This document shows, piece after piece, positions 7,678 to 37,930 of a stretch of DNA of 43,098 bases. Position numbers and translations under genes: made by a program. The first letter of the stretch is position 1. Each line of letters opens with the position of its first letter. Source of the stretch: a virus (Duplodnaviria; Heunggongvirae; Uroviricota; Caudoviricetes); IMG/VR virus record IMGVR_UViG_2541047775_000007; one strand, written 5' to 3'. The notes below the pieces were generated by a model, which searched no databases, was not told the DNA's origin, and saw nothing but the letters and a program-made list of their open reading frames with translations.

Positions 7678-7692
7678 TTACCTTTCAGGTAA
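7678..7692. promoter_or_regulatory. operator-like palindrome TTACCTTTCAGGTAA (motif A)
   Basis: Perfect 5-bp inverted repeat with 5-bp spacer; one member of a family of at least 13 near-identical sites. Confidence 0.6.
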
Positions 7693-7729
7693 TTTGCAAA
7701 ACGTGCTGGATAGCAAACAAATTATTTGC

Positions 7730-7749
7730 TACTGTATAAATATACAGTT
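7730..7749. promoter_or_regulatory. LexA (SOS) box TACTGTATAAATATACAGTT
   Basis: CTGT-N8-ACAG core at 7732-7747 with AT-rich spacer, 18/20 match to the E. coli LexA consensus; 20 bp upstream of the start codon at 7769. Confidence 0.75.
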
Positions 7750-7768
7750 ATTGCATGGAGAAGATAAG

Positions 7769-8026
7769 ATGCAGCGGTATCACTATCCACTGGAAGACGG
7801 ATTTACCGAAAGGATTCACACGCCGGGAGGCGTCAGGTCACTGGTGGAGGGATCGCACTTGATGAAATTACTCCGGGATCTCGATAAGGATGGATTTAAT
7901 GTCGATGGCCCACTTGCCGAACTGACTGCACTGATTAACTACGTTACCAGCTCACAGATGTCTATGCGGGATCTGCAAACACATCTCGACTATTGTGCCG
8001 AACAATTACGAAAACAAACCCGGTAA
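7769..8026 (+). CDS. small antirepressor-like protein (85 aa), paralog of the C-terminal domain of the 9177..9833 antirepressor
   Basis: RBS ggag 8 nt before ATG; sequence aligns with the Ant C-terminus (shared GV..L.E.S.LM.LL..L..DG..V.G..AELT....Y......RD.QTH..Y); LexA box immediately upstream. Confidence 0.65.
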   Translation: MQRYHYPLEDGFTERIHTPGGVRSLVEGSHLMKLLRDLDKDGFNVDGPLAELTALINYVTSSQMSMRDLQTHLDYCAEQLRKQTR

Positions 8027-8030
8027 ATTT

Positions 8031-8052
8031 AAAGGCCGCAAGAGCGGCCTAT
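8031..8052. terminator. bidirectional intrinsic terminator (aggccgc-aaga-gcggcct) between convergent genes
   Basis: 7-bp GC stem flanked by T/A-rich runs on both sides; nearly identical hairpin recurs at 11282-11299. Confidence 0.55.
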
Positions 8053-8777
8053 CGTTTCGCTTTGTGCTCGTCCCAGCACGTTTTGCACCATGCCATTAAG
8101 CCATCCGCATTTTGATTATTAGGGTAAAAGCTTGTTCGTTTTCTGCGGACATTACAAATTGGGCACCACTTCATATGGCGTGTATTCTTTGGGCCATCGA
8201 GACACCTTGCACACCACTTAGTCAATCCATCTGGATTTTTTGACGATTTCCTGAATTTTTCATATGGTAGGTTTATTCTGCATCGCAAGCACTGCTTGCT
8301 ACCACTTGAAACTCTGTTAGCTGATTCTTCTTTTGGCGGCGATACAGAAGGTATTCTTGCTGGCTCTGATACTGCCTGAGGTGCTTTTTTAGATGACTGA
8401 GACGATATGTCATCACCAGGGAATCTTCCATGATATGCCGGACGCATTGACACTCCAGGTGGAAGCTCAGCTGTAAACGGCTTTGGCTGAATCAGTTGCC
8501 TCTCTTTTGCTAACTCCTGCTGTTTATAATATGTCTGGATTACCGCACTATCATAAGCAGGAGGTGCGGAAATATTAGGCGCATTACCTCCAGTTTTTTG
8601 AAACTGAGTAGAGGTGTGTTCTATCACCTGTGTACGATTAATCGTTATCTCCCCATCTTCGGTCTTTATCGTTTTGTTATGATTAACGACCGTACGATCA
8701 GAGATCTTAGTCTTGTTCTGGTTGATAACGTAAATAATCACCGCAACCACACCAACAACTATCCAGAAAACTTCCAT
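8049..8777 (-). CDS. membrane-anchored protein with C-terminal tandem CxxC zinc-ribbon-like motifs (242 aa)
   Basis: RBS gaggaaaag before ATG; N-terminal TM helix; long low-complexity linker; C-terminus CLRC...NPDGLTKWCARC...WCPIC...NADGLMAWCKTC (duplicated DGL..WC..C unit). Confidence 0.7.
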   Translation of the reverse strand: MEVFWIVVGVVAVIIYVINQNKTKISDRTVVNHNKTIKTEDGEITINRTQVIEHTSTQFQKTGGNAPNISAPPAYDSAVIQTYYKQQELAKERQLIQPKPFTAELPPGVSMRPAYHGRFPGDDISSQSSKKAPQAVSEPARIPSVSPPKEESANRVSSGSKQCLRCRINLPYEKFRKSSKNPDGLTKWCARCLDGPKNTRHMKWCPICNVRRKRTSFYPNNQNADGLMAWCKTCWDEHKAKR

Positions 8778-8797
8778 TGCTTTTCCTCACAATAACA

Positions 8798-8812
8798 TTA
8801 CCTTAAAGGTAA
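8798..8812. promoter_or_regulatory. operator-like palindrome TTACCTTAAAGGTAA (motif A)
   Basis: Perfect palindrome 21 bp upstream of the minus-strand start at 8777. Confidence 0.6.
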
Positions 8813-8861
8813 TATCTTGCTTTCAGGTGATCAAGCGTTAAACGCAATCAACCAAATACGG

Positions 8862-8905
8862 TTGATTTTAATATTTCTTCGCGTTTATCATTACCTTTGC
8901 GGTAA
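8862..8905 (+). promoter_or_regulatory. candidate promoter (TTGATT -35) with overlapping operator TTACCTTTGCGGTAA (8891-8905)
   Basis: -35-like hexamer followed by a motif A palindrome; lies about 270 bp upstream of the antirepressor gene. Confidence 0.45.
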
Positions 8906-8942
8906 ATTTACATTGCACTCCTCTTGTGCCATAGTAATCGGG

Positions 8943-9018
8943 CACTGGCAAAATCCAGTGCCGGGATTGGTCTCCCGGATTACTAAGTGGCGCATACCAC
9001 GCCAGACGTGGTTTTTTT
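8943..9018 (+). promoter_or_regulatory. structured leader: three consecutive hairpins ending in an intrinsic terminator (ccacg-ccaga-cgtgg plus T7)
   Basis: Hairpins cactgg/ccagtg (8943-8960), ccggga/tcccgg (8961-8978), and terminator 8996-9018; no credible ORF. Confidence 0.45.
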
Positions 9019-9176
9019 ATGCGTATAGCACAGTCATGCCAGAATTATGGTGGGCTGAATGGGGGTCCGAAAGGACGCCGGTACCACTTAGGCCGGTAAG
9101 ACCAACTCCGTTCAGTTCACCACCATCTGATTGGTCTCAGCGGTGGTGATGTAATTCGCTAAGTGGAGACGCCATC

Positions 9177-9833
9177 ATGAACGCTCAACTCATCCCCGTA
9201 TTCAACGGCACTATATCTAACGAAACAGCCCTACTTTGTAATGCCCGCGATCTGCACACTTTTTTAGGTGTTAAAAAGGTGTTTGCAGCATGGATTACAA
9301 ATCGCATATCAGAATACGAATTCATTGAAAATCAAGACTATATTTTGCTTTCCAATTTGGGAAAGCAAACATCTGGTAGAGGCGGCCACAACCGCAAAGA
9401 GTACCACCTCACCCTTGATACAGCCAAAGAGCTGGCGATGGTCGAGCGTAACGAAAAAGGTCGCCAGGTGCGACGCTACTTCATTGAATGCGAGAAACGT
9501 TTAAGACAACAAGAAACAAAAGTGGAGAAGGTCTTGTCAGGCTTCATGCCCGCCATTATGGAGGCGATCAAGCTGGAAGACAAAAAAGAATACAGCGCCC
9601 CACTGAAGCCCGGCTACCGCAGCCTGATTCATTCTCCGTCTGGTGTTCTCGGACTGACGGAGAACTCACTGCTGATGAATCTGCTGAACCAGTTACAGGA
9701 AGACGGGCACGACGTATCGGGCGCGGCGGCGGAGCTGACCACCATGTTCTGCTACATCGTCGGTGTGAGCAAATGCCTGCGTGATATCCAGACGCACGCG
9801 GAGTACATCAACGACAAGGCAGGGTTCTTCTGA
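9177..9833 (+). CDS. phage antirepressor, AntA/AntB-type N-terminal domain plus C-terminal domain shared with the 7769..8026 protein (218 aa)
   Basis: N-terminus MNAQLIPVFNG...KVFAAWITNRISEYEFIENQDYIL...RYFIECEKRL resembles AntA/AntB antirepressor family; intrinsic terminator at 9843-9865 follows. Confidence 0.7.
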   Translation: MNAQLIPVFNGTISNETALLCNARDLHTFLGVKKVFAAWITNRISEYEFIENQDYILLSNLGKQTSGRGGHNRKEYHLTLDTAKELAMVERNEKGRQVRRYFIECEKRLRQQETKVEKVLSGFMPAIMEAIKLEDKKEYSAPLKPGYRSLIHSPSGVLGLTENSLLMNLLNQLQEDGHDVSGAAAELTTMFCYIVGVSKCLRDIQTHAEYINDKAGFF

Positions 9834-9906
9834 CAGAACGGCGGCACAGGGATGTGCCTTTAAATAATTCTGTACAGATTGCAGACCGGGGGTGAATAGC
9901 GTACTA

Positions 9907-9921
9907 TTACCTTAAAGGTAA
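9907..9921. promoter_or_regulatory. operator-like palindrome TTACCTTAAAGGTAA (motif A)
   Basis: Identical to the 8798 site; 27 bp upstream of the start at 9948. Confidence 0.6.
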
Positions 9922-9947
9922 ACCATGTGTTTACATGAGGAGGAGAT

Positions 9948-10157
9948 ATGGGATTTTGGTTCGCTCGTACAAAAACGAGGGATAATGCACCCAGCCCTCA
10001 GGCAAAAAATGCAGAAGTTCCGGCGTCAGCGCAGGTTAACAAGCGTGGTGGTGTGTATATCTCATCACAGCAAATTTCTGAGCTTCCTGAGGTTAAGGAG
10101 ATGCGTCGTCTCGCTGCTGCAATCGTTAAACAGGATCTTGCCACTGTAAGGAAATAG
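9948..10157 (+). CDS. small hydrophilic protein (69 aa), first gene of a two-gene cassette
   Basis: Very strong RBS gaggaggagat before ATG; stop overlaps start of downstream gene. Confidence 0.6.
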   Translation: MGFWFARTKTRDNAPSPQAKNAEVPASAQVNKRGGVYISSQQISELPEVKEMRRLAAAIVKQDLATVRK

Positions 10158-11023
10158 TGTTGTTAGCTCTTCTAATTATCCCCATTCTGGTTAGTGGTTA
10201 TATTATGATAACCGCTAACCAGTATCATTATTTCCGTTTATACCGACATGAAGGCCAGCTTCTTTATATGAAAGTAGCTGCATTAGGTACATATTGCCTT
10301 GTTGCTTCGGTAATAATTGCCGCATTTATAAAATATAAATATCCTGATTTTCACCTAGTTCACGATATGGTGGAAACTTTTAATGTAACGTCAAAACCAG
10401 AAACAGATAGAATTTACATGTGGCTGCTTCTTCTCTCAGCCACATCCATTTGCTTCTCTTTGTGTTATGTGTCTGTTGTGTGGGTGAAAGATTTTCTTCT
10501 TGGTTGTTTTTATAAACGTGATATTTACGAGCAAAAAACAGAGGCAATGAAGGCCAGAGTACTGCGAAAAACTTACTCGCAAGGTTCTTTAGACTTACTA
10601 TTGCTTGATGCTATTGAATCGGATCCTAAACGACCAATGCTGATTACTTTATCATCAAACAAAGTGTATGTTGGAATAATAAATGGTTCTGGTGAACCAA
10701 CGGAAAATCAGGGTCCGCATCAGCACATATCTTTTGTTCCTTTAATGTCAGGATACAGGAACAAAGACAACTTATCTGTCACATTCACTAATGCTTATCC
10801 AGGAGAAATACAGGTCAAGCGGACTGCAGCAATAAGAGGAATTAGCAGAAAGAAAGTGCCAGGACTTGAGATCATGGTGTCTATTGACGAAATAAGTTAT
10901 ATATCATGGTTTGATTTTGAAGTATATAAAGCAACAAATAACAAAGTAGAATCCAGGGGGCACGTTATTCGTGTTACCAAAAATGGAAGAAATATATATC
11001 AAAGAAATAGCAAAAAAGAATAG
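10157..11023 (+). CDS. AT-rich membrane protein (288 aa; about 3 N-terminal TM helices plus about 170-aa C-terminal domain), candidate superinfection-exclusion/defence protein
   Basis: GTG start with RBS aaggaaa, overlapping upstream stop; markedly lower GC than flanking phage genes; strong terminator downstream. Confidence 0.6.
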   Translation: MLLALLIIPILVSGYIMITANQYHYFRLYRHEGQLLYMKVAALGTYCLVASVIIAAFIKYKYPDFHLVHDMVETFNVTSKPETDRIYMWLLLLSATSICFSLCYVSVVWVKDFLLGCFYKRDIYEQKTEAMKARVLRKTYSQGSLDLLLLDAIESDPKRPMLITLSSNKVYVGIINGSGEPTENQGPHQHISFVPLMSGYRNKDNLSVTFTNAYPGEIQVKRTAAIRGISRKKVPGLEIMVSIDEISYISWFDFEVYKATNNKVESRGHVIRVTKNGRNIYQRNSKKE

Positions 11024-11043
11024 CCCGCGCTGCGGGCTTTTTT
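11023..11043 (+). terminator. rho-independent terminator (gcccgc-gct-gcgggc plus T6)
   Basis: GC stem followed by TTTTTT immediately after the 10157..11023 stop. Confidence 0.7.
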
Positions 11044-11115
11044 GTGGACGAAACAAAAGCCAGTGCTACACTCATTGACGCCACATTGAGGTGGCTTATA
11101 GATGGAAATTTCACA

Positions 11116-11277
11116 ATGAAAAAAGCATTTGCTGCACTGTTCGTTTTGTTGTCTCTGGTAGCTTCAACTCAGGCCTTTGCCGGTCGTTGTCAGCACGACA
11201 GCGATACTGCCGCTGACGGCTCCCGCTGCGGTGGGCGTTCTGCGGATTCCCGCCCGGGTGGCGGTGGCATTCGTTAA
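11116..11277 (+). CDS. small secreted Gly/Cys-containing peptide (53 aa precursor, about 31 aa mature)
   Basis: MKKAFAALFVLLSLVASTQAFA signal peptide, then GRCQHDSDTAADGSRCGGRSADSRPGGGGIR; candidate promoter TTGACG-N17-ATAGAT upstream; weak RBS. Confidence 0.45.
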   Translation: MKKAFAALFVLLSLVASTQAFAGRCQHDSDTAADGSRCGGRSADSRPGGGGIR

Positions 11278-11299
11278 AAACAAGGCCGCGAAAGCGGCC
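11274..11299 (-). terminator. intrinsic terminator (aggccgc-gaaa-gcggcct) ending the minus-strand late operon
   Basis: 7-bp GC stem; T-run on the minus strand; separates convergent transcription units. Confidence 0.6.
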
Positions 11300-11300
11300 T

Positions 11301-11605: not shown

Positions 11606-11617
11606 GTAGTCACCTAT

Positions 11618-11791: not shown

Positions 11792-11800
11792 AACACTTCC

Positions 11801-19602: not shown

Positions 19603-22073
19603 CAGAATCCCCCAACAGTAAGGCGAGGAATAACGGCAAGAACAGACAGCGGCAACGGGTCAAGCTGACGGATTTTTACACGCCCGTTTTTGCCCCAGTT
19701 ACTGTCCAGTTTCACTTCTACTTTTCCGGTAGCATCATCAACAGGATCATCGTAGAACTCGAATTCACGCTGTGGATATTCGTACCATTTACCGCCGGGC
19801 GTAGTCGCCCAGATGCCGCGACTGGCATTCACAACCAGAGTAACGGACGGGATCACCTGTTTTTTGTCCAGCAGCGTTTCCTGTCCGTTAATGTTGATAT
19901 CCAGTGTTTCGAATTCAGCAGTTATTGGCAGGCCGATGTGCACAACAGCCCCCGGTGATTCCAGCGTGACGGCACCTCCGGAAACCACTTTTTGTGGTTC
20001 CACGTTCGCATCAGAGAGGATGTTTACGGTCTGGCCTTCAAGATGAGACAAGCCGCCAAATGTCCGGCGCGCCATCTGCCAGTTCGTGGTGGCCACATTC
20101 CTGAGGGATGGCGGGACGTTCCTGTTAGCACGAACCACTACTGCGGTATTGCTGGTTACAGAAATAATGTCGCAACGTAATTCTTTTGACACTTCATCGC
20201 CAGTATCAGGATCAGCTCCGGTATAAGGGAACTGTAGTTGCGCACCAACATCACTACTGGTGAAGTACGCACCACCAGAAACACTGATTGTATATTCCGC
20301 GTGGTAATCCCATTCACCAGAACCACCAGTGATGGTCATCGTTCTGTCAGACGTATTTCTTCCATCATAGCTAAGGCCAGAATCAACAAAGAAAGCATCT
20401 TCATCGCTGGTAAATAAACGGCTGGACAGTCGCTCTATGTATCTCACTGTTTGCCCGTTAACGGTTCGGTTAACGACGAAATACACCGCATCTTCATTGC
20501 CTTCGCTGATACTGCATGTGCTTTCATATTTTCCGGTACTGGATTGTGGTGCCCATGCAAAAACCTGCTGATCACGCAAATAGGTCATCACCAGTAATTT
20601 ACCGTCATCACGAATGCAGAAGGCGCTGGAGTAAGGGACAATAGAGAAGCACCAGTCAACAATGCTGTGCTTCTGAAAAAGATGATTGGCAAGGATGGTC
20701 AGGTCGTTCCCCTGATAGCCGTCAACATCGAATGAGTAGGCCAGATCACGGACAACACTGCCTTTCTCCTGGACGAACAGAGCAATATTCGCCACGGCAA
20801 TTGGTGGGACGTTGCTTGAGCCATTTGATCCCTGAGAGCTGAATGCAAATGATGATGGGGTTAACACTTTGTTCTGGTCGCCGGTGATGACGTACTCACC
20901 TCCGGAAGTCAGCGCCACCAGCGAACCAACATCAATCAGGTGGCGGATCTCATTAACCTGACGCCCGGCATAGGTGTAGATAATTCTGTCGTCATCCTGC
21001 GTAGGATTGCTTTTGCCAAAATCCTTATAATCCCCGGTACGGCTGGCCCAGATAGTCTGAGGGAACGCAGTCGATGCGGCGAAGTAAAGACGTTGTTGAT
21101 AATAAACAACAGTGCCAGGATAACCATTAACACTGTTCCAGGCATATTTAGCCCATTTATAGCTGGCATTATCCTCGCCAACGACCTGCGAAGGGATATA
21201 GGAAATCACCTCGGCAGTTGCAGTAGTGCCGTTTACAGCAGTGATACGGGCAATGCCAAACCCACTGTGCAGATACTCCCACTCAATGCCAGTATCATCA
21301 TCACCGGATCCGCCCCAGCCATCCCATGATGTGCCTTCTGTATGCGAAGGGCGCAAAGTGCCTGTTTTGCCTGCTGTAACGGCGCGATAGTAATTACTGT
21401 CTGCACGGCGAATATCGCCAATCGACGTACTCTTACTGGTTTCCCATACCGGCACTGAATCCACTGCAGGCTGTTCCAGATAGAACAATTTGCCTACCTG
21501 CTCCGCGCCAAAAATAGAGGCGCTTGCCGTTAACGTAATTGTCCCGGTGCTGGCGCTGGCATAAACCGTCACTGACTCGTCAATATTGATATCTTCAAAT
21601 GGCCCGTTCTTCGTTACCACATCAACCAGTTGCCAGTTGTCATGCGCGTAGCGGCGCAACTCTTTCGGCGGGTATGCCGGGTGAACCAGCGTAAGCACGT
21701 CGGCGCTTTGCGTGAATTTAATTCGGAACAGATCGGCTTCAGTATATGGCGTGGCAATTTCATAAATAACATTGCTGCTGTTCAGCACCAACGCACCATC
21801 TTTGATAACGCGCATGTACTGGTGCCCGAACTCCAGAGCATAGGTCTGAACCGTCGAGAACTGGAACGGGATCAGGCGGCATTTCCGATTTGGGTATTTG
21901 GCGGCACCGACAAAACGCGTACCAGGTCGATTCTCAACGCCGCCATACTGCCGCACGATAAAGTTATCGCACTTGCGCAATGCCACCTGGTACTTCGCCA
22001 TGTCGATACGTCCGTACAACGACGGTCCAATCTCACCACCGGCAAAGCTGGGCTGGATCCAACTGATAGCCAT
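19602..22073 (-). CDS. tail tube/nozzle protein (823 aa), T7 gp12-like position
   Basis: Size and position after a 201-aa gene fit the tubular protein A/B pair of podoviruses; no motif-level confirmation. Confidence 0.45.
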   Translation of the reverse strand: MAISWIQPSFAGGEIGPSLYGRIDMAKYQVALRKCDNFIVRQYGGVENRPGTRFVGAAKYPNRKCRLIPFQFSTVQTYALEFGHQYMRVIKDGALVLNSSNVIYEIATPYTEADLFRIKFTQSADVLTLVHPAYPPKELRRYAHDNWQLVDVVTKNGPFEDINIDESVTVYASASTGTITLTASASIFGAEQVGKLFYLEQPAVDSVPVWETSKSTSIGDIRRADSNYYRAVTAGKTGTLRPSHTEGTSWDGWGGSGDDDTGIEWEYLHSGFGIARITAVNGTTATAEVISYIPSQVVGEDNASYKWAKYAWNSVNGYPGTVVYYQQRLYFAASTAFPQTIWASRTGDYKDFGKSNPTQDDDRIIYTYAGRQVNEIRHLIDVGSLVALTSGGEYVITGDQNKVLTPSSFAFSSQGSNGSSNVPPIAVANIALFVQEKGSVVRDLAYSFDVDGYQGNDLTILANHLFQKHSIVDWCFSIVPYSSAFCIRDDGKLLVMTYLRDQQVFAWAPQSSTGKYESTCSISEGNEDAVYFVVNRTVNGQTVRYIERLSSRLFTSDEDAFFVDSGLSYDGRNTSDRTMTITGGSGEWDYHAEYTISVSGGAYFTSSDVGAQLQFPYTGADPDTGDEVSKELRCDIISVTSNTAVVVRANRNVPPSLRNVATTNWQMARRTFGGLSHLEGQTVNILSDANVEPQKVVSGGAVTLESPGAVVHIGLPITAEFETLDININGQETLLDKKQVIPSVTLVVNASRGIWATTPGGKWYEYPQREFEFYDDPVDDATGKVEVKLDSNWGKNGRVKIRQLDPLPLSVLAVIPRLTVGGF

Positions 22074-27847: not shown

Positions 27848-27884
27848 TTGACATTTAACGCACAAATTATTACCTTTAAGGTAA
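27848..27884 (+). promoter_or_regulatory. promoter-like TTGACA (27848-27853) with operator TTACCTTTAAGGTAA (27870-27884)
   Basis: Consensus -35 hexamer followed by a motif A palindrome, pointing toward the tRNA island. Confidence 0.5.
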
Positions 27885-28943: not shown

Positions 28944-30419
28944 TTAAGCATAGGGATCGTAATCTGTAATGGCCTTGCCTTGCTGGTTCTGCTGCCCGGG
29001 AAGTCGCAGGCGCTTTGACACCGGGAAAGCAAACGTCAGCAGTAGCGCATCGCCTTTACCAGGAGAACGCCCAAGACGCTCTTTGATATCTTCCTTCGGT
29101 TCGATAACGATTTTACCGTCCACACGAACTTTGTACTCTGCCGCCGACAGGTCGTCTGCAGTTTCCTGGTCATCCAGCATGCCGCCCAGCCTCAGCCATG
29201 TCTTACATGAGTTGAACATCTCCCCACGCTTGTTAAGCATCTGCGGGTCAGTGGACGCACCGCCGAACGGAACAAGTTGCCATGTACGCCCCCAGCCATC
29301 ACCGATTGACTTCAAACCGGTTCCGTAACCGAAGTCGATGAACACCGCGTCAGCCTGATACTGGTCTTCAAAGTCAGCGATACGCTTCGCCATTATCAGA
29401 TCGTCAGTGGTCTTGTTGCCAGTCCACAGCACCTTACTGTGCAGCCCCTGCCGCAGGTATATCACAGCGTCATCAACTCCGGAGTATGCCGGGTCAACGC
29501 CGATTATCACCGGAGCATGTGCAACCTGCGCAGCGGTTACCACCCGTTTCATTGCCTCATCAGTAAGACCGGTAGGGATAAACTGCAATTCAGATGCATC
29601 AGGGAATATGCCGCGCACACGGATTTTAACGAAGTCGCTGTCTTCCCCGTAGTCATCAACCCATTTCTGCAACTGCTGTTTGTTAGTGCCTTCCACCGTC
29701 CGGCTGTCAATCTGCGCAGTTTTCCAGCGGTGTTTGTATTTGCGGAAACATTCGCGAAAACGCCCGGTGTTACGTGTAGGGTTTCCGAACGCCACCCAGA
29801 TAATCTCAGTGTCTTCGTCCGTTAGCGCACCCTCGGCAACTTCCCACACCAGATCCGCAATGTTCGACGCTTCATCGAATACCACGATGATGCGTTTGCG
29901 CTCGTTGTGTAGTCCGGCGAATGCCTCAGTGTTGTGCTCAGACCAGGGGATTGCGTCAGCTCGCCACCGTTTGTCGTGCCCAGGATCATTGCTGTACATC
30001 GCGGTAGCGGTACAGGTAAACCAGTCTTTCGTGATAGCAAGGTTCGACCACTTGATAATTTCCGGCCAGGTCTTCGTTCGTAGCTGGTTGTCGGTGTTGG
30101 CGGTCACCACGACCTTACAATCCTCGCAAGTGGACATGCCCCAGTTGATCAGCATTGAGATGAATGCGGATTTACCAATACCGTGACCAGAAGCGCGTGC
30201 CAGCATAAGCGGCTGATAGCGCGTCTCTGGATTCTGCAGGTGATCACGTATCTCTCTGAACGCATCGGCCTGCCACTGACGTGGACCGGTGGCATGTGCC
30301 AGTTCAGTACCCTCTTCCCCCCACGGGAACGCATAGAGGGCATAGCCAAGCGGATCGTGAGTGAACCCTGCAATATCCTCGATTAACTGCTCTTCAGGAG
30401 ATAACGCTGTATCTGTCAC
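28944..30419 (-). CDS. terminase large subunit (491 aa)
   Basis: Walker A-like GHGIGKS, acidic nuclease-domain residues, position after terS. Confidence 0.85.
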   Translation of the reverse strand: MTDTALSPEEQLIEDIAGFTHDPLGYALYAFPWGEEGTELAHATGPRQWQADAFREIRDHLQNPETRYQPLMLARASGHGIGKSAFISMLINWGMSTCEDCKVVVTANTDNQLRTKTWPEIIKWSNLAITKDWFTCTATAMYSNDPGHDKRWRADAIPWSEHNTEAFAGLHNERKRIIVVFDEASNIADLVWEVAEGALTDEDTEIIWVAFGNPTRNTGRFRECFRKYKHRWKTAQIDSRTVEGTNKQQLQKWVDDYGEDSDFVKIRVRGIFPDASELQFIPTGLTDEAMKRVVTAAQVAHAPVIIGVDPAYSGVDDAVIYLRQGLHSKVLWTGNKTTDDLIMAKRIADFEDQYQADAVFIDFGYGTGLKSIGDGWGRTWQLVPFGGASTDPQMLNKRGEMFNSCKTWLRLGGMLDDQETADDLSAAEYKVRVDGKIVIEPKEDIKERLGRSPGKGDALLLTFAFPVSKRLRLPGQQNQQGKAITDYDPYA

Positions 30420-31012
30420 TGATTGCCATCCTGACGTTCTTTCAGTCTCTTCCTGGCTGCCGCTATGCGATCAGCAATTGTCACATTCACATTAACATCC
30501 AGGCGTTCTTTGAACGCGTTGACGTCGACGTGCTTACCAATCAGTTCGAGGTTCTTCACCTTGTCAGGCCATTTAATTTTTTTGAGGATTGTCTCTATCG
30601 AATCCTCGTCCATGTTCATGATGGTAGATGACAGATCAAAGCCACTAAGCGTAGTGCGCCAGATTTTCGGCCACTCGCGGATTGGCTTAAGGCTTCCATC
30701 GTCGTTGAGGATATCAATCACGTCCATCTGGTCGATCTCCACCAGGCGCATGAGAACGTAATCAGCACTGACGCGCATTCGTTTGTTGCGCTCCTCCATC
30801 AACTCGGCAATCCGTTTTTGAATGCGTTCATCGCGCATCATGACACTGGCTTTAACTGCCGCTGTATTTGGGGAGAATCCTGCGTTAATCGCAGCCTGAC
30901 TCTGGTTTTCAGGCGTTTTGATGTATGACTGGCAATAAGCCTCCTGCATTGCTGTGAGCGGCTTAAATTGCGTTGATTTGCGTTTATAGGTTTTAGGTTC
31001 AGCAGGCATCAT
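30416..31012 (-). CDS. terminase small subunit (about 198 aa; ORF-track start at 31090 probably over-extended)
   Basis: Overlaps terL start; basic N-terminus MMPAEPKTYKRK; motifs recalled from small terminase families. Confidence 0.6.
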   Translation of the reverse strand: MMPAEPKTYKRKSTQFKPLTAMQEAYCQSYIKTPENQSQAAINAGFSPNTAAVKASVMMRDERIQKRIAELMEERNKRMRVSADYVLMRLVEIDQMDVIDILNDDGSLKPIREWPKIWRTTLSGFDLSSTIMNMDEDSIETILKKIKWPDKVKNLELIGKHVDVNAFKERLDVNVNVTIADRIAAARKRLKERQDGNQ

Positions 31013-31054
31013 AACCACCCTGGTAATTGTTACCGTCGTGGTAATAGTAACATG

Positions 31055-31081
31055 CAAAATAAAGCCGCCATAGTTGGCGGC
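31055..31081 (-). terminator. intrinsic terminator (gccgcc-atagtt-ggcggc, T-run on minus strand) upstream of the terminase/late operon
   Basis: 6-bp GC stem followed on the minus strand by ctttatttt; lies between the zinc-finger gene and terS. Confidence 0.5.
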
Positions 31082-31122
31082 AGTATTCAAAACCCATCAA
31101 ATTCATCATGCATAATCTACTC

Positions 31123-31134
31123 GTGACATGTCAC
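31123..31134. other. perfect palindrome GTGACATGTCAC (motif C copy 3)
   Basis: Overlaps the stop codon of 31131..31469, 38 bp upstream of the terminator. Confidence 0.6.
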
Positions 31135-31469
31135 ACTATTAATTTCGTTTCATGCCAGCCTTTAGTCACCCAGCATTGCGAGTCACCATTGCACGGGCAT
31201 GAATTAACTGGAACTCTCTCGCCGCACTTACCGCAACGTTTTCTGCTGATCGATTTTATACGCCCGCGCACGCGTGCATCATCCTGGCGGATCAGTAACG
31301 CTATATACTCACCAAATTCGTAAGGCGCACGCCCGGGGCGACGCGTGGCACAGTTACGCTCCAGCATTTCAATTTCCTGAGCATCAAGCACAATCTCCAG
31401 CTTACGTACACCGGATGCAGCTTGTCTGGCTCTCTGAGCGGCTTTGCGCTCTGCTGCTGATTTAGCCAT
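31131..31469 (-). CDS. zinc-finger protein (112 aa), candidate late-gene regulator/antiterminator
   Basis: C-terminal CGKCG...CPC...C cluster; basic N-terminus; last early gene before the terminator and terS. Confidence 0.45.
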   Translation of the reverse strand: MAKSAAERKAAQRARQAASGVRKLEIVLDAQEIEMLERNCATRRPGRAPYEFGEYIALLIRQDDARVRGRIKSISRKRCGKCGERVPVNSCPCNGDSQCWVTKGWHETKLIV

Positions 31470-32737: not shown

Positions 32738-33424
32738 TCACTCTCCTTTGATGCGAATGCCAGCGGCACGGGAATCATTCCATCGCTTTACTTCTTCACG
32801 AATTACGTCAATGCATTCTTTCGAATCCATTAGGTAATCTTCATCAAAAAGCCTTTCCTGTTCGTTTTCTATCGCAACAATGATTGCTTCAACTAACTTT
32901 TGTGCCTGAGAACCACTTTCTAACTCTGCAATGCGCTTCTCTGCGGCTTCCAGCTTCTCGCGCATATCGTCAACGTACTCGACCAGAGATCCGCCAGCAG
33001 GAATTTCGCACTCCTCGACCAGTTGGAAGTAGATATCAGCTGCGGCCCGTGTGTTGCTATGCCTAGCGTCGCCCATCTCACCTTCACGAAGAGCATCGCG
33101 TTCGGCGGTAAGATTGGCTATTTTGCTGTCTTTGCCTTCCAGCTCAACGCGAAGCCTCCCTACCGTTAGCGCAATATCCTCGTTCTCCTGGTCGCGGCGT
33201 TTTATGTATTGCTGGTTTCTTTCCCGTTCATCCAGCAGTGCCAGCACGGTTTCTGGTCCGGCCAGAAATTTGAAGGCGTTGAGCGCATCAATATCCACAC
33301 CGTAATCTTTAAGTTCCTGTTCGCTTATCAGATCATCATCAACTGGCAACATTAACAGGCGTTCCATTGCCGGAATTGCACGTTCTGCCGCCTCACGCAG
33401 TGCCTGATAGTTAATTTTGGTCAT
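32738..33424 (-). CDS. Ea22-like coiled-coil protein (228 aa)
   Basis: Charged coiled-coil composition and position in the nin-like region. Confidence 0.4.
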   Translation of the reverse strand: MTKINYQALREAAERAIPAMERLLMLPVDDDLISEQELKDYGVDIDALNAFKFLAGPETVLALLDERERNQQYIKRRDQENEDIALTVGRLRVELEGKDSKIANLTAERDALREGEMGDARHSNTRAAADIYFQLVEECEIPAGGSLVEYVDDMREKLEAAEKRIAELESGSQAQKLVEAIIVAIENEQERLFDEDYLMDSKECIDVIREEVKRWNDSRAAGIRIKGE

Positions 33425-34339: not shown

Positions 34340-34400
34340 CTTTACCCTCGCTTATCCACATAACTTATTGATTACATTGATAACTAAAAAGATCGTCGAT

Positions 34401-34745
34401 TCAGAACTCTTCGATGTTCCAGCCACCACCTGCTTTCTTTGGTTTAACCGTTACCCCGATGATTCGGAACGGATACTGATCTGCGGCGACTTTGGTTTTC
34501 ACCCTGGCGTCGTCGGTCCAGAAACCTTTCACTTCGTGCAGTTCCATCTCGCCGGTGGCGAGCATCACAGCAAAATCGGGCGTATAGAACGTGTTGTCAG
34601 CTAACCGCAACTTGATACCCTCAAATCGATACCAGACGATTTCCCCTGCACGTTTACGCTGCTCAAGGTGCTGGCAATACGCAGATTCTGTTTTGTTCAT
34701 CTGGCCTGTTTTGAGTCGACCAAGAGCCTGTATCTGTTTTCTCAT
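34401..34745 (-). CDS. DUF1064-like phage protein (114 aa)
   Basis: Pattern recalled from lambdoid early-region proteins; operator palindrome overlaps its RBS. Confidence 0.45.
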   Translation of the reverse strand: MRKQIQALGRLKTGQMNKTESAYCQHLEQRKRAGEIVWYRFEGIKLRLADNTFYTPDFAVMLATGEMELHEVKGFWTDDARVKTKVAADQYPFRIIGVTVKPKKAGGGWNIEEF

Positions 34746-34748
34746 GAT

Positions 34749-34825
34749 TTACCTCTAAGGTAATTAAAAACCACATAAGACACGAAATCAATAGAGTTTA
34801 GAATATTTTGTTACCCAACAGGTAA
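34749..34825. promoter_or_regulatory. two operator palindromes TTACCTCTAAGGTAA (34749-34763) and TTACCCAACAGGTAA (34811-34825)
   Basis: Motif A sites in the intergenic region between the P-like gene and the DUF1064 gene; first site overlaps the RBS. Confidence 0.55.
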
Positions 34826-34862
34826 TTGTCGAGGCGTAAAAAAATGCGCTATCGCGCTGGTA

Positions 34863-35663
34863 TTACTTGATAAATCCTGCCGCCTTTCCCCGCCTGTATT
34901 CCTCCATCAGCCACTGCGCCGGTGTTATTCCCCCAAGGGTGGCGGCGTTAGGCATGCACCCGAAACTTCTCCCTGGTGGATGGTAAACGTCTCTCCCTGT
35001 GCCCGGAGGTGTACTCATGGGCTCTGGCTTTGCCTGTATGCTGATCACCGGATCGGGTATCTGCTGTCCGGAAGCCACCTTTTTCGCCCAATCATCGAGC
35101 AGCCTGCGCGCGTGTTTCTCAACCTCAATCTCGCTAAGCTGGCGCTGATACATTGCACGGCGGGTATCACATACGACCCAGTACATAACCGGATGTCGCC
35201 ACGGGAATCTTTCGGGACCACCAGGATATAAACTTTTTTCCTTGCTGTACCGGTGAAACTCCGCCATCACATCGTCAATGGTGACGCCAAGAACCATCTT
35301 GCTGTCTTTACACCACTTGATGAATTGCCCTGGCGACGGCCAGAACGGAGACTCACTGGCGCGGGCGTGGCGCATACCAGCAGAAACCTGTTCACGGGTT
35401 CGGATCCCCCCTTCGGCAAACGCAGCAATCCACTGCTGTTTTGCAGCAACTTCCTGCTCTGGCGTCTTCAGGTTGGTTACCACTGCCGCCGGAAACAGTT
35501 GTTTCAGCTGTTTGAAAAGGGCATCAACAAGCCTCTCTGCTGACATGTTCACCACATTGTCATTGTTGACGTACTGATGCTCATAACCTGACATGCGAGA
35601 AAGGGCTTCTCCGTCACGGTTTTGTATCGCGGTAAAAACGTTGTTCACAAGAAATCCTCCCAT
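34863..35663 (-). CDS. replication protein P-like (helicase loader), 266 aa
   Basis: Motif SPFWPSPGQFIKWC matches lambda P RPFLPSPGQFVAWC; position after the O-like gene. Confidence 0.75.
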   Translation of the reverse strand: MGGFLVNNVFTAIQNRDGEALSRMSGYEHQYVNNDNVVNMSAERLVDALFKQLKQLFPAAVVTNLKTPEQEVAAKQQWIAAFAEGGIRTREQVSAGMRHARASESPFWPSPGQFIKWCKDSKMVLGVTIDDVMAEFHRYSKEKSLYPGGPERFPWRHPVMYWVVCDTRRAMYQRQLSEIEVEKHARRLLDDWAKKVASGQQIPDPVISIQAKPEPMSTPPGTGRDVYHPPGRSFGCMPNAATLGGITPAQWLMEEYRRGKAAGFIK

Positions 35664-36460: not shown

Positions 36461-36475
36461 GATTAATCTCCGCTA

Positions 36476-36676
36476 TCAGCCTGAGTGTTGTGGGGAGGAA
36501 TTAATCATGATCTGCTTAATCTCTGCCCTGATGCGACGGTTTGATTCCATGGTGCACTCAACACAGTGTCCGTTGTAAACCCAGCGTTCACTGTCATGTC
36601 CGTGCTTACATGTTTTTCCGGTGTAGTAGCGTTTAAGTCCGCGCTTTGCGGCATCAATACGTGTAATGATTTCCAT
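36476..36676 (-). CDS. small zinc-ribbon protein (66 aa)
   Basis: CKHGH...CVEC motif; ATG start preferred over the TTG-initiated 87-aa extension. Confidence 0.45.
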   Translation of the reverse strand: MEIITRIDAAKRGLKRYYTGKTCKHGHDSERWVYNGHCVECTMESNRRIRAEIKQIMINSSPQHSG

Positions 36677-36756
36677 GGTAAGCCCTGTTATTGGTATTGG
36701 GATTACGGTTATTTTGTGCTGACACAAAAAAAAGATCAACCATATTTGGTTTTTTA

Positions 36757-36771
36757 TTACCTTTGAGGTAC
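36757..36771. promoter_or_regulatory. operator-like site TTACCTTTGAGGTAC (motif A, one mismatch)
   Basis: Palindrome next to the motif B palindrome aaccatatttggtt (36738-36751). Confidence 0.5.
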
Positions 36772-36777
36772 GAATAG

Positions 36778-36805
36778 ATATGAAAAGACCGCCGGATGGC
36801 GGTCT
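36778..36805 (-). terminator. hairpin (agaccgcc-ggat-ggcggtct) downstream of the Cro-like gene, tR1-like position
   Basis: 8-bp GC stem; weak T-tract on the minus strand. Confidence 0.4.
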
Positions 36806-36826
36806 ACAGAGGGTTGTGGCTGGATA

Positions 36827-37057
36827 TCATGAGTAGAAGAAGTATGCCAGTTCTGCTTTTGAGCGCAGCCATTGTCTTGATTTACAGGCTTTAAAAAGCC
36901 CATTCATCAATACCTTACCTGGCATTTTGCGCTTACCTGTTAAGTGAGTCTGGATATAGTGACTCGTCGTTCCGGCTTCCTGTGCGAAGGCTTCACGCTC
37001 ATCCGGAGTAAGTGCAAGCCAGTGCTTTTTGAAATCGAAATGTCCGTTATCGCTCAT
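36827..37057 (-). CDS. Cro/YdaS-like small DNA-binding regulator (76 aa)
   Basis: Divergent from the repressor across an operator cluster; size and HTH-like segment. Confidence 0.55.
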   Translation of the reverse strand: MSDNGHFDFKKHWLALTPDEREAFAQEAGTTSHYIQTHLTGKRKMPGKVLMNGLFKACKSRQWLRSKAELAYFFYS

Positions 37058-37093
37058 AGCTATTGCCTGATATTTATTTCAGATAATAAATAT

Positions 37094-37156
37094 TCACCTA
37101 TAAGGTAACAAAAATCAAGGATAGTTACCCATGAGGTGCATTTACCTGTTGGGTAA
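37094..37156. promoter_or_regulatory. immunity-region operator cluster: TCACCTATAAGGTAA (37094-37108), TTACCCATGAGGTGC (37125-37139), TTACCTGTTGGGTAA (37142-37156)
   Basis: Three motif A sites between divergent Cro-like and repressor genes (OR1-3-like arrangement). Confidence 0.65.
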
Positions 37157-37211
37157 TATTGCTTTAAATTGAATCATCTTCTGATTCAGATATGAGGCGA
37201 TTTTCCAGAAA

Positions 37212-37796
37212 ATGAAAAGTATCCAGGACGTCCGCAGGCAAAATCTCAACGACTTGATCGACCGTGAATTCAATGGTGTTCAGACGCGGATGGCTGAAAA
37301 ACTTGGAACTCAGGCAAATCTGGTAAACCGCTGGGCTCTTGGCAAGAAGGTTATCGGCGACCAGGTTGCGCGAAAAATTGAAGCTGCCGCCAATAAACCC
37401 CGTAACTGGCTTGATATCGATCGCTCGCTTTCTCAGGAAGGTTTTCAGCCTGTCGGACCAAGCGACATTGGTCAACTGGCGGCTCACAACCTGAAACGCT
37501 GGATGAGCGAAAGCCGCGACCTTTCAACGCAGGGAAAACTTCACCGCGCATCCGGCGTCGCCCAGGTAACAATCAGTCGCCTGTTAAACAATGAGGTCAG
37601 CGTTTCCATTTCCACCCTGGAGAATGTTGCATCCGCATTCGGGCGTCACGGCTATGAATTACTGATTCACCCGCACGACCCTGCGACCATCAACTATGAC
37701 CGCTCGCGCTACGCATTGTTACCCGAAACCGAGAAAGCAAAGATCGAAAGTTACATTGAATTTGTCATCAACCAGAACGAAAAAAACAAACAATAA
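37212..37796 (+). CDS. phage repressor with two tandem HTH (XRE-type) domains and no recognisable LexA-like autocleavage domain (194 aa)
   Basis: Two segments matching the Q..LA...G.....VSR HTH pattern; no S24 peptidase motif seen by eye; divergent from Cro-like gene. Confidence 0.65.
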   Translation: MKSIQDVRRQNLNDLIDREFNGVQTRMAEKLGTQANLVNRWALGKKVIGDQVARKIEAAANKPRNWLDIDRSLSQEGFQPVGPSDIGQLAAHNLKRWMSESRDLSTQGKLHRASGVAQVTISRLLNNEVSVSISTLENVASAFGRHGYELLIHPHDPATINYDRSRYALLPETEKAKIESYIEFVINQNEKNKQ

Positions 37797-37816
37797 AATC
37801 ATACTCTTCAGTAAGT

Positions 37817-37841
37817 AAGCCGCCTTCTGGCGGCTTTTTTA
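37817..37841 (+). terminator. rho-independent terminator (aagccgcc-ttct-ggcggctt plus T6) after the repressor gene
   Basis: 8-bp GC stem and TTTTTT. Confidence 0.75.
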
Positions 37842-37853
37842 TTGCCTATTTGA

Positions 37854-37930
37854 TTACCTAACGGGTAATTTTTTTAACTCATATCTATTGACATCAAACC
37901 AGATACGCATAATTATTACCTCAACGGTAA
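37854..37930 (+). promoter_or_regulatory. PL-like promoter region: operator TTACCTAACGGGTAA (37854-37868), TTGACA (37888-37893), operator TTACCTCAACGGTAA (37916-37930)
   Basis: Consensus -35 flanked by two motif A palindromes upstream of the plus-strand early operon. Confidence 0.55.

What the first reader, a model, noticed from the sequence alone, without database searches (positions are those of the whole stretch)
7678..37930. Distributed 15-bp operator family TTACC-N5-GGTAA at many promoters across the prophage
At least 13 copies of this palindrome occur, all intergenic and promoter-proximal: 7678, 8798, 8891, 9907, 27870, 34749, 34811, 36757, three between the Cro-like and repressor genes (37094-37156), and two flanking a TTGACA at 37854-37930. 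Several overlap the RBS of the downstream gene. One repressor apparently silences not only the immunity-region promoters but each accessory gene, the tRNA island and nin-region promoters individually, reminiscent of P1 C1 operators or mycobacteriophage stoperators.
Basis: seen in the sequence. Interest (0 to 1): 0.7.

Follow-up and report, generated by a model that had tools for sequence, protein, structure and literature searches.

The report
Prophage repressor operators scattered genome-wide
The repeated 15-bp palindrome is real and is very probably the binding site of this phiV10/epsilon15-type prophage's main repressor at nearly every transcription-unit start, but the same scattered sites are already annotated in phage epsilon15, so this is a further example of a known design.

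Summary
TTACC-N5-GGTAA occurs 11 times exactly (0.04 expected), plus three one-mismatch copies and one two-mismatch copy at conserved positions. All 15 lie in the 9% of the window that is intergenic. None occurs in 150 kb of E. coli core DNA, and no other spacer length gives more than one exact match.

The window is a phiV10/epsilon15-like (Uetakevirus) prophage. Its 194-aa repressor is a full-length homologue of Salmonella phage SPC32H Rep (PDB 5D50). An 87%-identical small antirepressor with a LexA box is also present.

The same motif sits at the same positions in phiV10, epsilon15, SPC32H, Tyrion, a Klebsiella phage and six other enterobacterial prophages. This holds although the repressors are only 42-77% identical; their N-terminal helix-turn-helix (HTH) domain is strongly conserved. 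The epsilon15 RefSeq record already labels seven of these sites as repressor-binding.

At two promoters one site abuts the -10 and a partner lies a conserved 61-63 bp upstream, which suggests bridging by a Rep tetramer. Binding itself was not tested here.

The parts
37212..37796 (+). Rep, the 194-aa prophage repressor. It has an N-terminal HTH DNA-binding domain and a C-terminal HTH_3-like domain, and no S24 peptidase domain.
   Evidence: 99.5% identical to phiV10 p40. Full-length hit to SPC32H Rep, PDB 5D50, E 4e-42. Pfam HTH_3 at residues 106-147 and a weak Cro/YdaS-like match at 21-61. N-terminal NLVNRW segment invariant across 42-77% identical homologues.
36827..37057 (-). Cro-like 76-aa protein, divergent from rep. 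It probably shares the operators.
   Evidence: PHROG 35 'transcriptional repressor', E 9e-13. No Pfam hit. Same position as epsilon15 gp39.
37094..37108 (.). OR site, TCACCTATAAGGTAA (one mismatch). It lies between the -35 and -10 of the promoter reading into the cro-like gene.
   Evidence: Promoter-like TTGTTA-N17-TATTAT at 37111-37083 on the minus strand.
37125..37139 (.). Middle OR site, TTACCCATGAGGTGC (two mismatches).
   Evidence: Credited by position only: it lies 31 bp and 17 bp from its neighbours. epsilon15 and SPC32H have three sites here with 17 + 30 bp spacing.
37142..37156 (.). OR site nearest rep (exact). It overlaps a weak -35-like TTTACC for the rep promoter.
   Evidence: Sequence read directly; the promoter assignment is inference.
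37854..37868 (.). Distal PL operator, 19 bp upstream of the -35.
   Evidence: Invariant half-sites in the six-phage alignment.
37888..37916 (+). PL-like early-left promoter, TTGACA-N17-AATTAT.
   Evidence: 10 of 12 consensus match. The -35 CTATTGAC is invariant in six phages.
37916..37930 (.). Proximal PL operator. It starts at the last base of the -10 and covers the expected transcription start. It is 62 bp from the distal site.
   Evidence: The spacing is 61-63 bp in 10 other genomes.
34811..34825 (.). Distal operator of the nin-like promoter, 19 bp upstream of the -35 on the minus strand.
34763..34791 (-). Nin-like promoter, TTGATT-N17-TTTAAT, read by hand. It drives DUF1064 (34401-34745) and the genes downstream.
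   Evidence: Invariant CTATTGA and T-AATTACC columns in the six-phage alignment. Coordinates. Not called by the consensus scanner, which instead called a non-conserved TCGACA-N16-CAAAAT.
34749..34763 (.). Proximal operator of the nin-like promoter. It overlaps the last base of the -10 and contains the GAGG ribosome-binding site 3 nt before the DUF1064 ATG. It is 62 bp from the distal site.
   Evidence: The spacing is 62 bp in all 10 other genomes in which both sites were seen.
36757..36771 (.). Single operator (one mismatch). It lies just downstream of the cro terminator (36786-36805) and 17 bp upstream of a -35-like TTGATC for the p42/replication unit.
   Evidence: Homologous site in phiV10 at 33112 and in Tyrion at 35365.
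31012..31044 (.). Pair of operators 18 bp apart, 31030-31044 (exact) and 31012-31026 (one mismatch). They lie between the terminator at 31064-31081 and the terS ATG at 31009. The proximal one contains the terS ribosome-binding site.
   Evidence: The same pair is present in phiV10, epsilon15 and Tyrion. The 12-27 site is annotated as repressor-binding in epsilon15.
27870..27884 (.). Single operator in the divergent gap between p06/portal (late genes, minus strand) and the tRNA-Arg/p03 unit (plus strand). A perfect TTGACA lies 16 nt upstream on the plus strand.
   Evidence: The homologous epsilon15 site at 2931-2947 is annotated as repressor-binding.
7678..7692 (.). Single operator in the divergent gap between the tailspike and the small antirepressor gene.
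   Evidence: The homologous epsilon15 site at 19895-19911 is annotated as repressor-binding.
7730..7748 (+). LexA box, TACTGTATAAATATACAGT, 20 nt upstream of ant.
   Evidence: CTGT-N8-ACAG match and sequence. LexA control of SPC32H ant is recalled from the Kim & Ryu 2013 abstract; the paper is not held.
7769..8026 (+). Small antirepressor Ant (85 aa).
   Evidence: 87% identical to SPC32H Ant, in the same genome position.
8798..8812 (.). Operator 21 bp upstream of the start of the 242-aa accessory gene (8049-8777, minus strand).
   Evidence: This cassette is absent from phiV10.
8891..8905 (.). Operator at the promoter of the isrK-C4-AntA cassette. One promoter-like -10 ends at its first base, and a second -35 starts 2 bp after it.
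   Evidence: An identical 15-mer is present in phiV10 at 20497.
8942..9833 (+). isrK sRNA (8942-9018), C4 antisense RNA (9043-9127) and the AntA-family antirepressor gene (9177-9833).
   Evidence: Rfam 67.7 and 61.2 bits, both above gathering score. Pfam AntA, E 6e-26.
9907..9921 (.). Operator 27 bp upstream of the two-gene accessory unit 9948-11023.

Best explanation
The palindromes are the operators of the prophage's own repressor, Rep (37212-37796).

Rep is an SPC32H/epsilon15-type protein. Its conserved N-terminal HTH domain, paired with a second copy, reads the two ATTACC half-sites, which are centred 10 bp apart.

In the lysogen Rep would occupy:
- a tripartite OR between rep and the cro-like gene;
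- two promoters built the same way, PL and the nin-like promoter. In each, a proximal operator abuts the -10 and covers the start site and sometimes the ribosome-binding site. A distal operator lies 61-63 bp (about six helical turns) upstream;
- a pair just before terS, downstream of a terminator;
- single sites at the remaining unit starts: p42/replication, p06/tRNA-Arg, ant/tailspike, and three accessory cassettes.

Proximal sites would block RNA polymerase directly.

Because SPC32H Rep is reported to bind DNA as a tetramer with two DNA-binding pairs, paired sites are probably bridged by one tetramer. That would close a small loop around the promoter.

Induction would run as follows. LexA cleavage lets the small Ant be made. 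Ant dismantles Rep, which releases all units at once. The released units include both antirepressor genes, so induction would reinforce itself.

What is shown: the motif statistics, the positions, the conservation, and the protein homologies. What is inferred: Rep binding to these sites in this phage, the looping, and the feed-forward step.
For: Motif statistics and placement.
- Enrichment and spacer specificity.
- Absence from 150 kb of host DNA.
- Exclusively intergenic placement.

Link to the repressor.
- Three sites lie in the rep/cro gap, one of them inside a promoter-like spacer.
- Rep is a full-length homologue of SPC32H Rep, PDB 5D50.
- SPC32H Rep binds palindromic sites as a tetramer whose DNA-binding pairs come from different dimers (secondary source). 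Its tetramerisation domain is of a type linked to DNA looping.
- A repressor of identical sequence to phiV10's (99.5% to this one) blocks lytic transcription in phage ZX5.

Conservation.
- Same motif at the same positions in five sequenced relatives and six prophages of other genera, although Rep is only 42-77% identical.
- The N-terminal domain is strongly conserved and its NLVNRW segment is invariant.
- The operator half-sites, the -35 and the -10 are the invariant columns of otherwise diverged intergenic alignments.
- Seven homologous sites in epsilon15 are annotated 'protein_bind, repressor'.
- Pseudomonas phage PseuP_224 has an unrelated virion module and a cI that shares only the N-terminal domain. 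It carries TTACC-N4-GGTAA only on both sides of cI.

Induction circuit.
- The small Ant is 87% identical to SPC32H Ant and has a LexA box.
Against: - There are no binding data for this protein or for phiV10. The primary SPC32H and epsilon15 papers could not be read, so the operator sequences they tested are not confirmed here.
- The cro-like protein could share or dominate some sites.
- Clear sigma-70 hexamers could not be placed for four site regions: 7678, 8798, 9907 and 27870.
- A 62-bp loop is tight. The constant spacing could instead reflect promoter geometry.
- Rep operators on the antirepressor genes do not fit a simple LexA-only induction model. Rep would keep ant off unless the 7678 site serves the tailspike promoter instead.
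Confidence: 0.85

Rival explanations
1. The dispersed sites are used mainly by the 76-aa cro-like protein, a lytic repressor that turns down early and accessory transcription during lytic growth. Rep would act only at OR and PL.
For: The cro-like gene is divergent from rep, across three of the sites. It falls in a PHROG family annotated as transcriptional repressor. In lambdoid phages Cro and CI share operators (established knowledge).
Against: The half-site tracks the Rep N-terminal domain into a Pseudomonas phage. The epsilon15 annotation assigns the sites to the repressor. Sharing of sites by both proteins is compatible with the main explanation; only exclusive use by the cro-like protein is a true rival.
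Confidence: 0.07
2. The palindromes act at the RNA level, as small hairpins that terminate transcription or mask ribosome-binding sites, rather than as protein-binding DNA.
For: Several sites would fall in the 5' leader and contain the ribosome-binding site. The 25-nt segments fold at -3.5 to -5.3 kcal/mol, somewhat better than shuffles.
Against: The stems are only 5-7 bp and weak, with no T-tract. Real terminators nearby are separate G+C-rich hairpins. Both arms keep a fixed sequence; the variants break pairing instead of compensating. Several sites lie upstream of the -35, so they would not be transcribed from that promoter.
Confidence: 0.03
3. The sites are primarily recombination or module-boundary sequences. 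Short shared homologies would let cassettes be swapped between phages, and any regulatory role would be secondary.
For: Homology to phiV10 breaks and resumes close to operator 8891. Each extra cassette (hyp242, hyp69-288, and further Bro-N/antirepressor cassettes in strain CE0007a) comes with its own site.
Against: Only two or three junctions were examined. The sites have a fixed register to the -10 and -35 hexamers, and a fixed 62-bp pairing that a recombination role does not need. This could be a by-product of cassettes having to carry an operator.
Confidence: 0.04
4. A host transcription factor, not a phage protein, binds the motif.
For: None found. The possibility was considered because a LexA box and annotated IHF sites accompany some sites.
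Against: There is no exact copy in 150 kb of E. coli core DNA. The motif is conserved across phages of Escherichia, Salmonella, Enterobacter and Klebsiella, and with N4 spacing in Pseudomonas, always next to the repressor gene.
Confidence: 0.01

Closest known systems
Rep-Ant immunity system of epsilon15-like podophages (Uetakevirus: epsilon15, SPC32H/SPN1S, phiV10)
   Same: - Same genome architecture.
- Rep is homologous over its full length to SPC32H Rep, PDB 5D50.
- The small Ant is 87% identical and has a LexA box.
- Same ATTACC-N5-GGTAAT motif at OR, PL, the nin-like promoter, terS, p06/gp3 and the ant/tailspike gap.
- Seven of these sites are annotated as repressor-binding in epsilon15.
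   Different: - Rep is only 42% identical to the epsilon15/SPC32H proteins; the divergence lies mostly after residue 70.
- OR spacing is 31 + 17 bp here, against 17 + 30 bp.
- PL has two operators, not three.
- The site upstream of the lysis cassette is missing here.
- Three extra operator-headed accessory cassettes lie between ant and the virion genes.
Phage P1 C1 repressor and its operators dispersed over the genome, including Op51 at the c4-icd-ant (immI) operon
   Same: One repressor has many operators outside the immunity region and controls separate operons. Here one operator heads a cassette with a C4 antisense RNA and an AntA antirepressor, like P1 immI.
   Different: P1 operators are asymmetric 17-mers bound by C1 (own knowledge). 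The recalled consensus has no match in the window. Rep is an HTH_3/Cro-type protein, not a C1 relative. The sites here are palindromic.
Stoperators of cluster A mycobacteriophages (L5, Bxb1)
   Same: There are many extra copies of the repressor site in short intergenic gaps across the genome. Three sites here (31012, 31030, 36757) follow terminators and could act as roadblocks to read-through.
   Different: Stoperators are asymmetric 13-14-mers, oriented with transcription, and act on elongation away from promoters (own knowledge). The sites here are symmetric. Where promoters can be recognised, the sites overlap or flank the -35/-10 in a fixed register.
Lambdoid OL/OR operators (lambda, 434, P22)
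   Same: There is a tripartite operator between the divergent repressor and cro-like genes. Further operators sit at the leftward early promoter, downstream of the repressor gene and its terminator.
   Different: - Lambdoid repressors have no operators at late, nin or accessory units.
- Rep has no RecA-sensitive peptidase domain and is inactivated by an antirepressor.
- PseuP_224 has the same DNA-binding domain and keeps the classical restricted layout.

Membership tests
Uetakevirus (epsilon15/SPC32H-type) Rep-Ant immunity system | Repressor of about 195 aa, homologous over its full length to SPC32H Rep, with no S24/LexA-type peptidase domain. | tested here: met
   PDB 5D50, E 3.9e-42 over residues 1-190. 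Pfam finds only HTH-type domains.
Uetakevirus (epsilon15/SPC32H-type) Rep-Ant immunity system | Small antirepressor of about 86 aa, encoded between the virion genes and the tailspike, with a LexA box at its promoter. | tested here: met
   87% identity to SPC32H Ant. Same position. TACTGTATAAATATACAGT at 7730-7748.
Uetakevirus (epsilon15/SPC32H-type) Rep-Ant immunity system | ATTACC-N5-GGTAAT palindromes at OR, PL, nin-like, terS, gp3 and ant/tailspike positions, as annotated in the epsilon15 record. | tested here: met
Uetakevirus (epsilon15/SPC32H-type) Rep-Ant immunity system | Overall synteny and nucleotide similarity with members of the genus. | tested here: met
   97-98% identity to phiV10-group phages over the immunity region. 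Gene order matches phiV10 and epsilon15.
Uetakevirus (epsilon15/SPC32H-type) Rep-Ant immunity system | Rep physically binds the palindromes as a tetramer and is released by Ant. | not testable with these tools
   Only secondary reports for SPC32H are available. The primary papers are not held.
P1 C1-type dispersed operator network | Repressor homologous to P1 C1. | tested here: not met
   Rep matches HTH_3/Cro-type families and SPC32H Rep only.
P1 C1-type dispersed operator network | Asymmetric 17-bp operator (consensus recalled as ATTGCTCTAATAAATTT). | tested here: not met
   No match with up to 3 mismatches. The motif here is a palindrome.
P1 C1-type dispersed operator network | Many operators outside the immunity region, controlling separate operons including a c4-ant module. 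| tested here: met
   Nine separate intergenic regions carry sites. C4 RNA and AntA lie behind operator 8891. This is a functional resemblance only.
Cluster A mycobacteriophage stoperators | Asymmetric 13-14-bp site with one orientation relative to transcription. | tested here: not met
   The site is a symmetric 15-17-bp palindrome, so it has no orientation.
Cluster A mycobacteriophage stoperators | Sites lie within transcription units, away from promoters, and block elongation. | tested here: inconclusive
   Most sites overlap or flank promoter-like hexamers. The terS pair and 36757 directly follow terminators. Elongation block was not testable.

The most novel reading that the evidence does not exclude
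Rep works as a genome-wide lock rather than a local switch.
- One tetramer would bridge each strictly spaced (61-63 bp) operator pair into a micro-loop around the PL and nin-like promoters.
- Operators placed just after terminators, before terS and before p42, would act as roadblocks to read-through.
- Rep would also sit on the promoters of its own two antirepressors: the LexA-controlled small Ant and the C4-RNA-controlled AntA. A first pulse of Ant would then trigger a self-reinforcing, all-or-none release of every unit.
- Repressors only 42% identical read the same operator. This predicts cross-immunity across phages of Escherichia, Salmonella, Enterobacter and Klebsiella, and would explain why incoming accessory cassettes each carry an operator.
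Probability: 0.3. Interest if true: 0.45.

Novelty: new member of a known kind. Interest (0 to 1): 0.25.

Why it matters
phiV10-type prophages with this immunity region occur in about one in nine complete E. coli genomes (587 of 5426). Knowing the full operator set gives several things.
- It predicts which prophage genes are silent in the lysogen and released together on induction. These include two antirepressors that could cross-induce other prophages.
- It gives a compact, portable repressor-operator pair with defined promoter architecture.
- It raises a testable point: repressors 42% identical keep one operator, so immunity groups in this genus may be much broader than sequence identity suggests.

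It does not reveal a new kind of regulation. The scattered sites are already annotated in epsilon15, and the repressor-antirepressor mechanism has been solved structurally for SPC32H.

Tried and rejected
- Primary papers not held. These were the epsilon15 genome paper (PMC2698709) and the two SPC32H papers (PMC4983836, PMC3807360). Statements about them rest on secondary papers, the GenBank records or memory, and are marked as such.
- Full-text search for the motif written four ways found nothing. A search for Uetakevirus plus operator/repressor terms found only the ZX5 paper, which names no operator.
- Chance was rejected.
- Two-mismatch matches in coding DNA looked enriched against shuffles (26 against about 11). 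Real E. coli DNA has 22-39 per 43 kb and other spacers give 11-41, so this class is background.
- A site upstream of the lysis cassette is present in phiV10, epsilon15, SPC32H and Tyrion. It was looked for at 4889-5090 and is absent here.
- Distant N-terminal-domain homologues in Paraburkholderia, Hydrogenovibrio and Thiomicrospira have no TTACC motif and no obvious palindrome near the gene. Their putative recognition segment also differs, so they neither help nor hurt.
- PADLOC and NCBIfam gave nothing for the operator-headed accessory genes.
- Pfam and PDB gave nothing for the candidate late regulator p55.
- RNA-hairpin and P1-operator readings were tested and set aside.
- Sigma-70 hexamers could not be placed convincingly at 7678, 8798, 9907 or 27870.

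Full report
OBSERVATION

TTACC-N5-GGTAA occurs 11 times exactly in the 43,098-bp window, against 0.04 expected from dinucleotide-preserving shuffles. With up to one mismatch it occurs 14 times against 0.69 expected.

- Ten are exact.
- 36757 and 37094 have one mismatch.
- The middle site of the cro/rep trio, 37125, has two mismatches.

Three controls sharpen the observation.
- Spacer length: of spacers 0-11, only N5 gives more than one exact match, 11 against 0-1.
- Host DNA: 150 kb of E. coli core chromosome has no exact match.
- Location: with a curated gene map, all 15 sites fall in the 9.1% of the window that is non-coding. For the 11 exact sites alone P is about 4e-12. Eight of the 11 prophage gaps of at least 100 bp contain a site.

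Degenerate matches need care.
- Real E. coli DNA has about 2.6 one-mismatch and 22-39 two-mismatch matches per 43 kb. The shuffles underestimate that background.
- The four degenerate sites are accepted because of where they lie and because relatives have sites at the same places.

The symmetrised consensus of 29 exact sites from three genomes is wATTACCTTwAAGGTAATw.

WHAT THE WINDOW IS

The immunity region is 97-98% identical to phiV10-group phages (genus Uetakevirus). It is found in 587 of 5426 complete E. coli genomes.

Gene order is that of phiV10 and epsilon15, in reverse orientation. The prophage lies next to yfgI, with an IS200 copy at that end. The first about 1.1 kb of the window is a multi-copy IS.

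THE REPRESSOR AND ITS PARTNERS

- The 194-aa protein at 37212-37796 is 99.5% identical to phiV10 p40.
- It aligns over its whole length with the Rep of Salmonella phage SPC32H, PDB 5D50 (E 4e-42).
- It has HTH-type domains only and no LexA-like peptidase.
- A repressor with the phiV10 sequence was shown in phage ZX5 to abolish free phage and to reduce endolysin and holin transcripts by more than 99.9% when overexpressed. No operator was defined there.
- The 85-aa protein at 7769-8026 is 87% identical to the SPC32H antirepressor Ant and sits at the same genome position.
- Twenty nucleotides upstream of it lies a canonical LexA box, TACTGTATAAATATACAGT.
- Secondary sources state that SPC32H Rep binds palindromic DNA as a tetramer whose DNA-binding pairs come from different dimers, and that tetrameric Ant breaks it up. 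Its tetramerisation domain is of a type associated with DNA looping.
- The cro-like 76-aa protein at 36827-37057 belongs to a PHROG family annotated as transcriptional repressor.

LINKING MOTIF AND REPRESSOR

First, three sites lie between rep and the cro-like gene. One of them is inside the spacer of a promoter-like TTGTTA-N17-TATTAT that reads into the cro-like gene.

Second, the motif is equally enriched in five sequenced relatives, with 13-18 matches at up to one mismatch per genome against about 0.5 expected: phiV10, epsilon15, SPC32H, Enterobacter phage Tyrion and Klebsiella phage BUCT711.
- It is also present in prophages of Superficieibacter, Erwinia, Klebsiella, Citrobacter and Scandinavium recovered with the Rep alignment.
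- It always lies at homologous positions.
- These repressors are only 42-77% identical. Their first about 70 residues are strongly conserved and the NLVNRW segment is invariant.

Third, Pseudomonas siphophage PseuP_224 has a lambda-like virion module and a 245-aa cI that shares only this N-terminal domain (43% identity).
- It carries TTACC-N4-GGTAA palindromes on both sides of cI and nowhere else in its genome.
- The half-site therefore follows the DNA-binding domain. The genome-wide scattering is a property of the Uetakevirus genomes.

Fourth, the epsilon15 RefSeq record already carries seven 'protein_bind, bound moiety repressor' features. They lie at terS, gp3, the gp19(ant)/tail-fibre gap, three sites at PL and one at the nin-like promoter, and they coincide with this motif.

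ANATOMY

Two promoters share one design. The six-phage alignments run from the preceding terminator to the first ATG. Their invariant columns are the terminator, both operator half-site pairs, CTATTGA(C/T) (the -35) and the -10.

| Promoter | -35 / -10 | Proximal operator | Distal operator |
|---|---|---|---|
| PL | TTGACA 37888, AATTAT ending at 37916 | 37916-37930 | 37854-37868 |
| Nin-like | TTGATT 34791-34786, TTTAAT 34768-34763 | 34749-34763 | 34811-34825 |

In both promoters:
- the proximal operator begins at the last base of the -10;
- the distal operator ends 19 bp before the -35;
- the two operators lie 62 bp apart.

That spacing is 61-63 bp in every other genome in which both sites were seen. 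At the nin-like promoter the proximal operator also contains the GAGG ribosome-binding site, 3 nt before the ATG, whichever gene follows.

The terS pair is different. A promoter-like element at the stop codon of p55, beside a perfect 12-bp palindrome GTGACATGTCAC, is followed at once by a strong terminator (31064-31081). Only then come the two operators and the terS ATG, with the terS ribosome-binding site inside the proximal operator. This resembles the lambda PR'-tR' late unit, with Rep sites added as an extra block.

36757 follows the cro terminator and lies 17 bp upstream of a -35-like TTGATC.

8891 sits between two promoter-like elements of a leader that encodes isrK and a C4 antisense RNA ahead of an AntA-family antirepressor gene. 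8798 and 9907 lie 21 and 27 bp before the starts of accessory genes of unknown function.

For 7678, 8798, 9907 and 27870 I could not place convincing sigma-70 hexamers. 7678 and 27870 sit in divergent gaps, so which gene each one controls is open.

MECHANISM

The best-supported account is that Rep occupies all these sites in the lysogen.
- Proximal sites would exclude RNA polymerase from the -10 and the start site.
- Paired sites are probably bridged by one tetramer. Six helical turns is a spacing at which cooperative looping by lambda repressor is known (own knowledge).
- The post-terminator sites may stop read-through.
- SOS cleavage of LexA would allow Ant synthesis. Ant would disassemble Rep and release every unit together.

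Shown: motif statistics, placement, conservation, protein homology. Inferred: binding by this Rep, looping, roadblock, and the self-reinforcing release of the two antirepressor genes.

Rivals all have specific evidence against them:
- exclusive use by the cro-like protein;
- RNA hairpins (weak, at -3.5 to -5.3 kcal/mol, with no T-tract and no compensatory changes);
- module-boundary recombination signals;
- a host factor.

COMPARISON WITH KNOWN SYSTEMS

- This is a member of the epsilon15/SPC32H Rep-Ant system. Every testable defining feature is met.
- It works like the P1 C1 network in having one repressor with many dispersed operators, down to a C4-RNA/antirepressor cassette behind one of them. 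It is not a member: the protein is unrelated and the operators are symmetric.
- It is not a stoperator system. The sites are palindromic and mostly promoter-linked.

NOVELTY AND SCORE

The scattered repressor sites are already in the public epsilon15 annotation, and the repressor mechanism is solved for SPC32H. The phiV10 record itself annotates none.

The modest additions made here are:
- the complete 15-site map for a phiV10-type prophage;
- the missed terS pair;
- the shared promoter-operator architecture with conserved 61-63-bp pairing;
- the operator-headed accessory cassettes;
- the observation that repressors only 42% identical keep one operator.

Verdict: a new member of a known kind; interest 0.25.

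Noticed in passing
window 8907-9833: An isrK sRNA (8942-9018) and a C4 antisense RNA (9043-9127) lie in the leader of an AntA-family antirepressor gene (9177-9833). This is a P1 immI-like cassette, and a terminator-like hairpin sits at 8996-9012. phiV10 keeps the same operator and leader in front of a different (Bro-N) antirepressor. The prophage therefore carries two antirepressor systems: LexA-controlled Ant and RNA-controlled AntA.
   Followed up: partly
window 31064-31135 (minus strand): A perfect 12-bp palindrome, GTGACATGTCAC (31123-31134), overlaps the stop codon of p55. It is followed by promoter-like hexamers and then at once by a strong terminator, before the terS operators. The arrangement is conserved in epsilon15, Tyrion and phiV10. 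It looks like a lambda PR'-tR'-type late antitermination unit, with p55 (112 aa, no Pfam or PDB hit) as candidate regulator.
   Followed up: partly
L022 (Pseudomonas phage PseuP_224) 10906-11820: This lambda-like siphophage has a cI that shares only the N-terminal domain with Rep. Its operators have the same half-sites but a 4-bp spacer (TTACC-N4-GGTAA), and they are confined to both sides of cI.
   Followed up: yes
L001 (phiV10 NC_007804.2) 41-715; window 30416-31090: The phiV10 RefSeq record starts terS at an upstream TTG, so the annotated CDS runs through the terminator and both operators. The ATG used in epsilon15 and Tyrion (window 31009) fits better.
   Followed up: yes
window 1-3090: The host side of the junction holds a multi-copy IS fragment (1-1128) and yfgI (1623-2162). 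It also holds an IS200 copy (tnpA 2310-2768) with its STnc490 RNA (2778-2901), lying between yfgI and the prophage lysis genes.
   Followed up: no
window 8049-8777, 9948-11023: The operator-headed accessory genes have no known function. The 242-aa protein has zinc-ribbon, endonuclease VII or Lar-like matches in its C-terminal part (PHROGs). The 69-aa and 288-aa pair has no annotation. None of the three has a PADLOC or NCBIfam hit.
   Followed up: partly
window 7629-7636 and 37939-37944: Isolated extra half-sites (ATTACCT at about 7630; GGTAA in the ribosome-binding site of the first PL gene) lie near full operators. Their significance is unknown.
   Followed up: no
L004 (SPC32H) 12623, 21411, 22229, 31325, 38521: SPC32H has five one-mismatch matches inside coding regions. 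That is more than the shuffles predict, but within the range seen in real E. coli DNA. They are probably background.
   Followed up: partly
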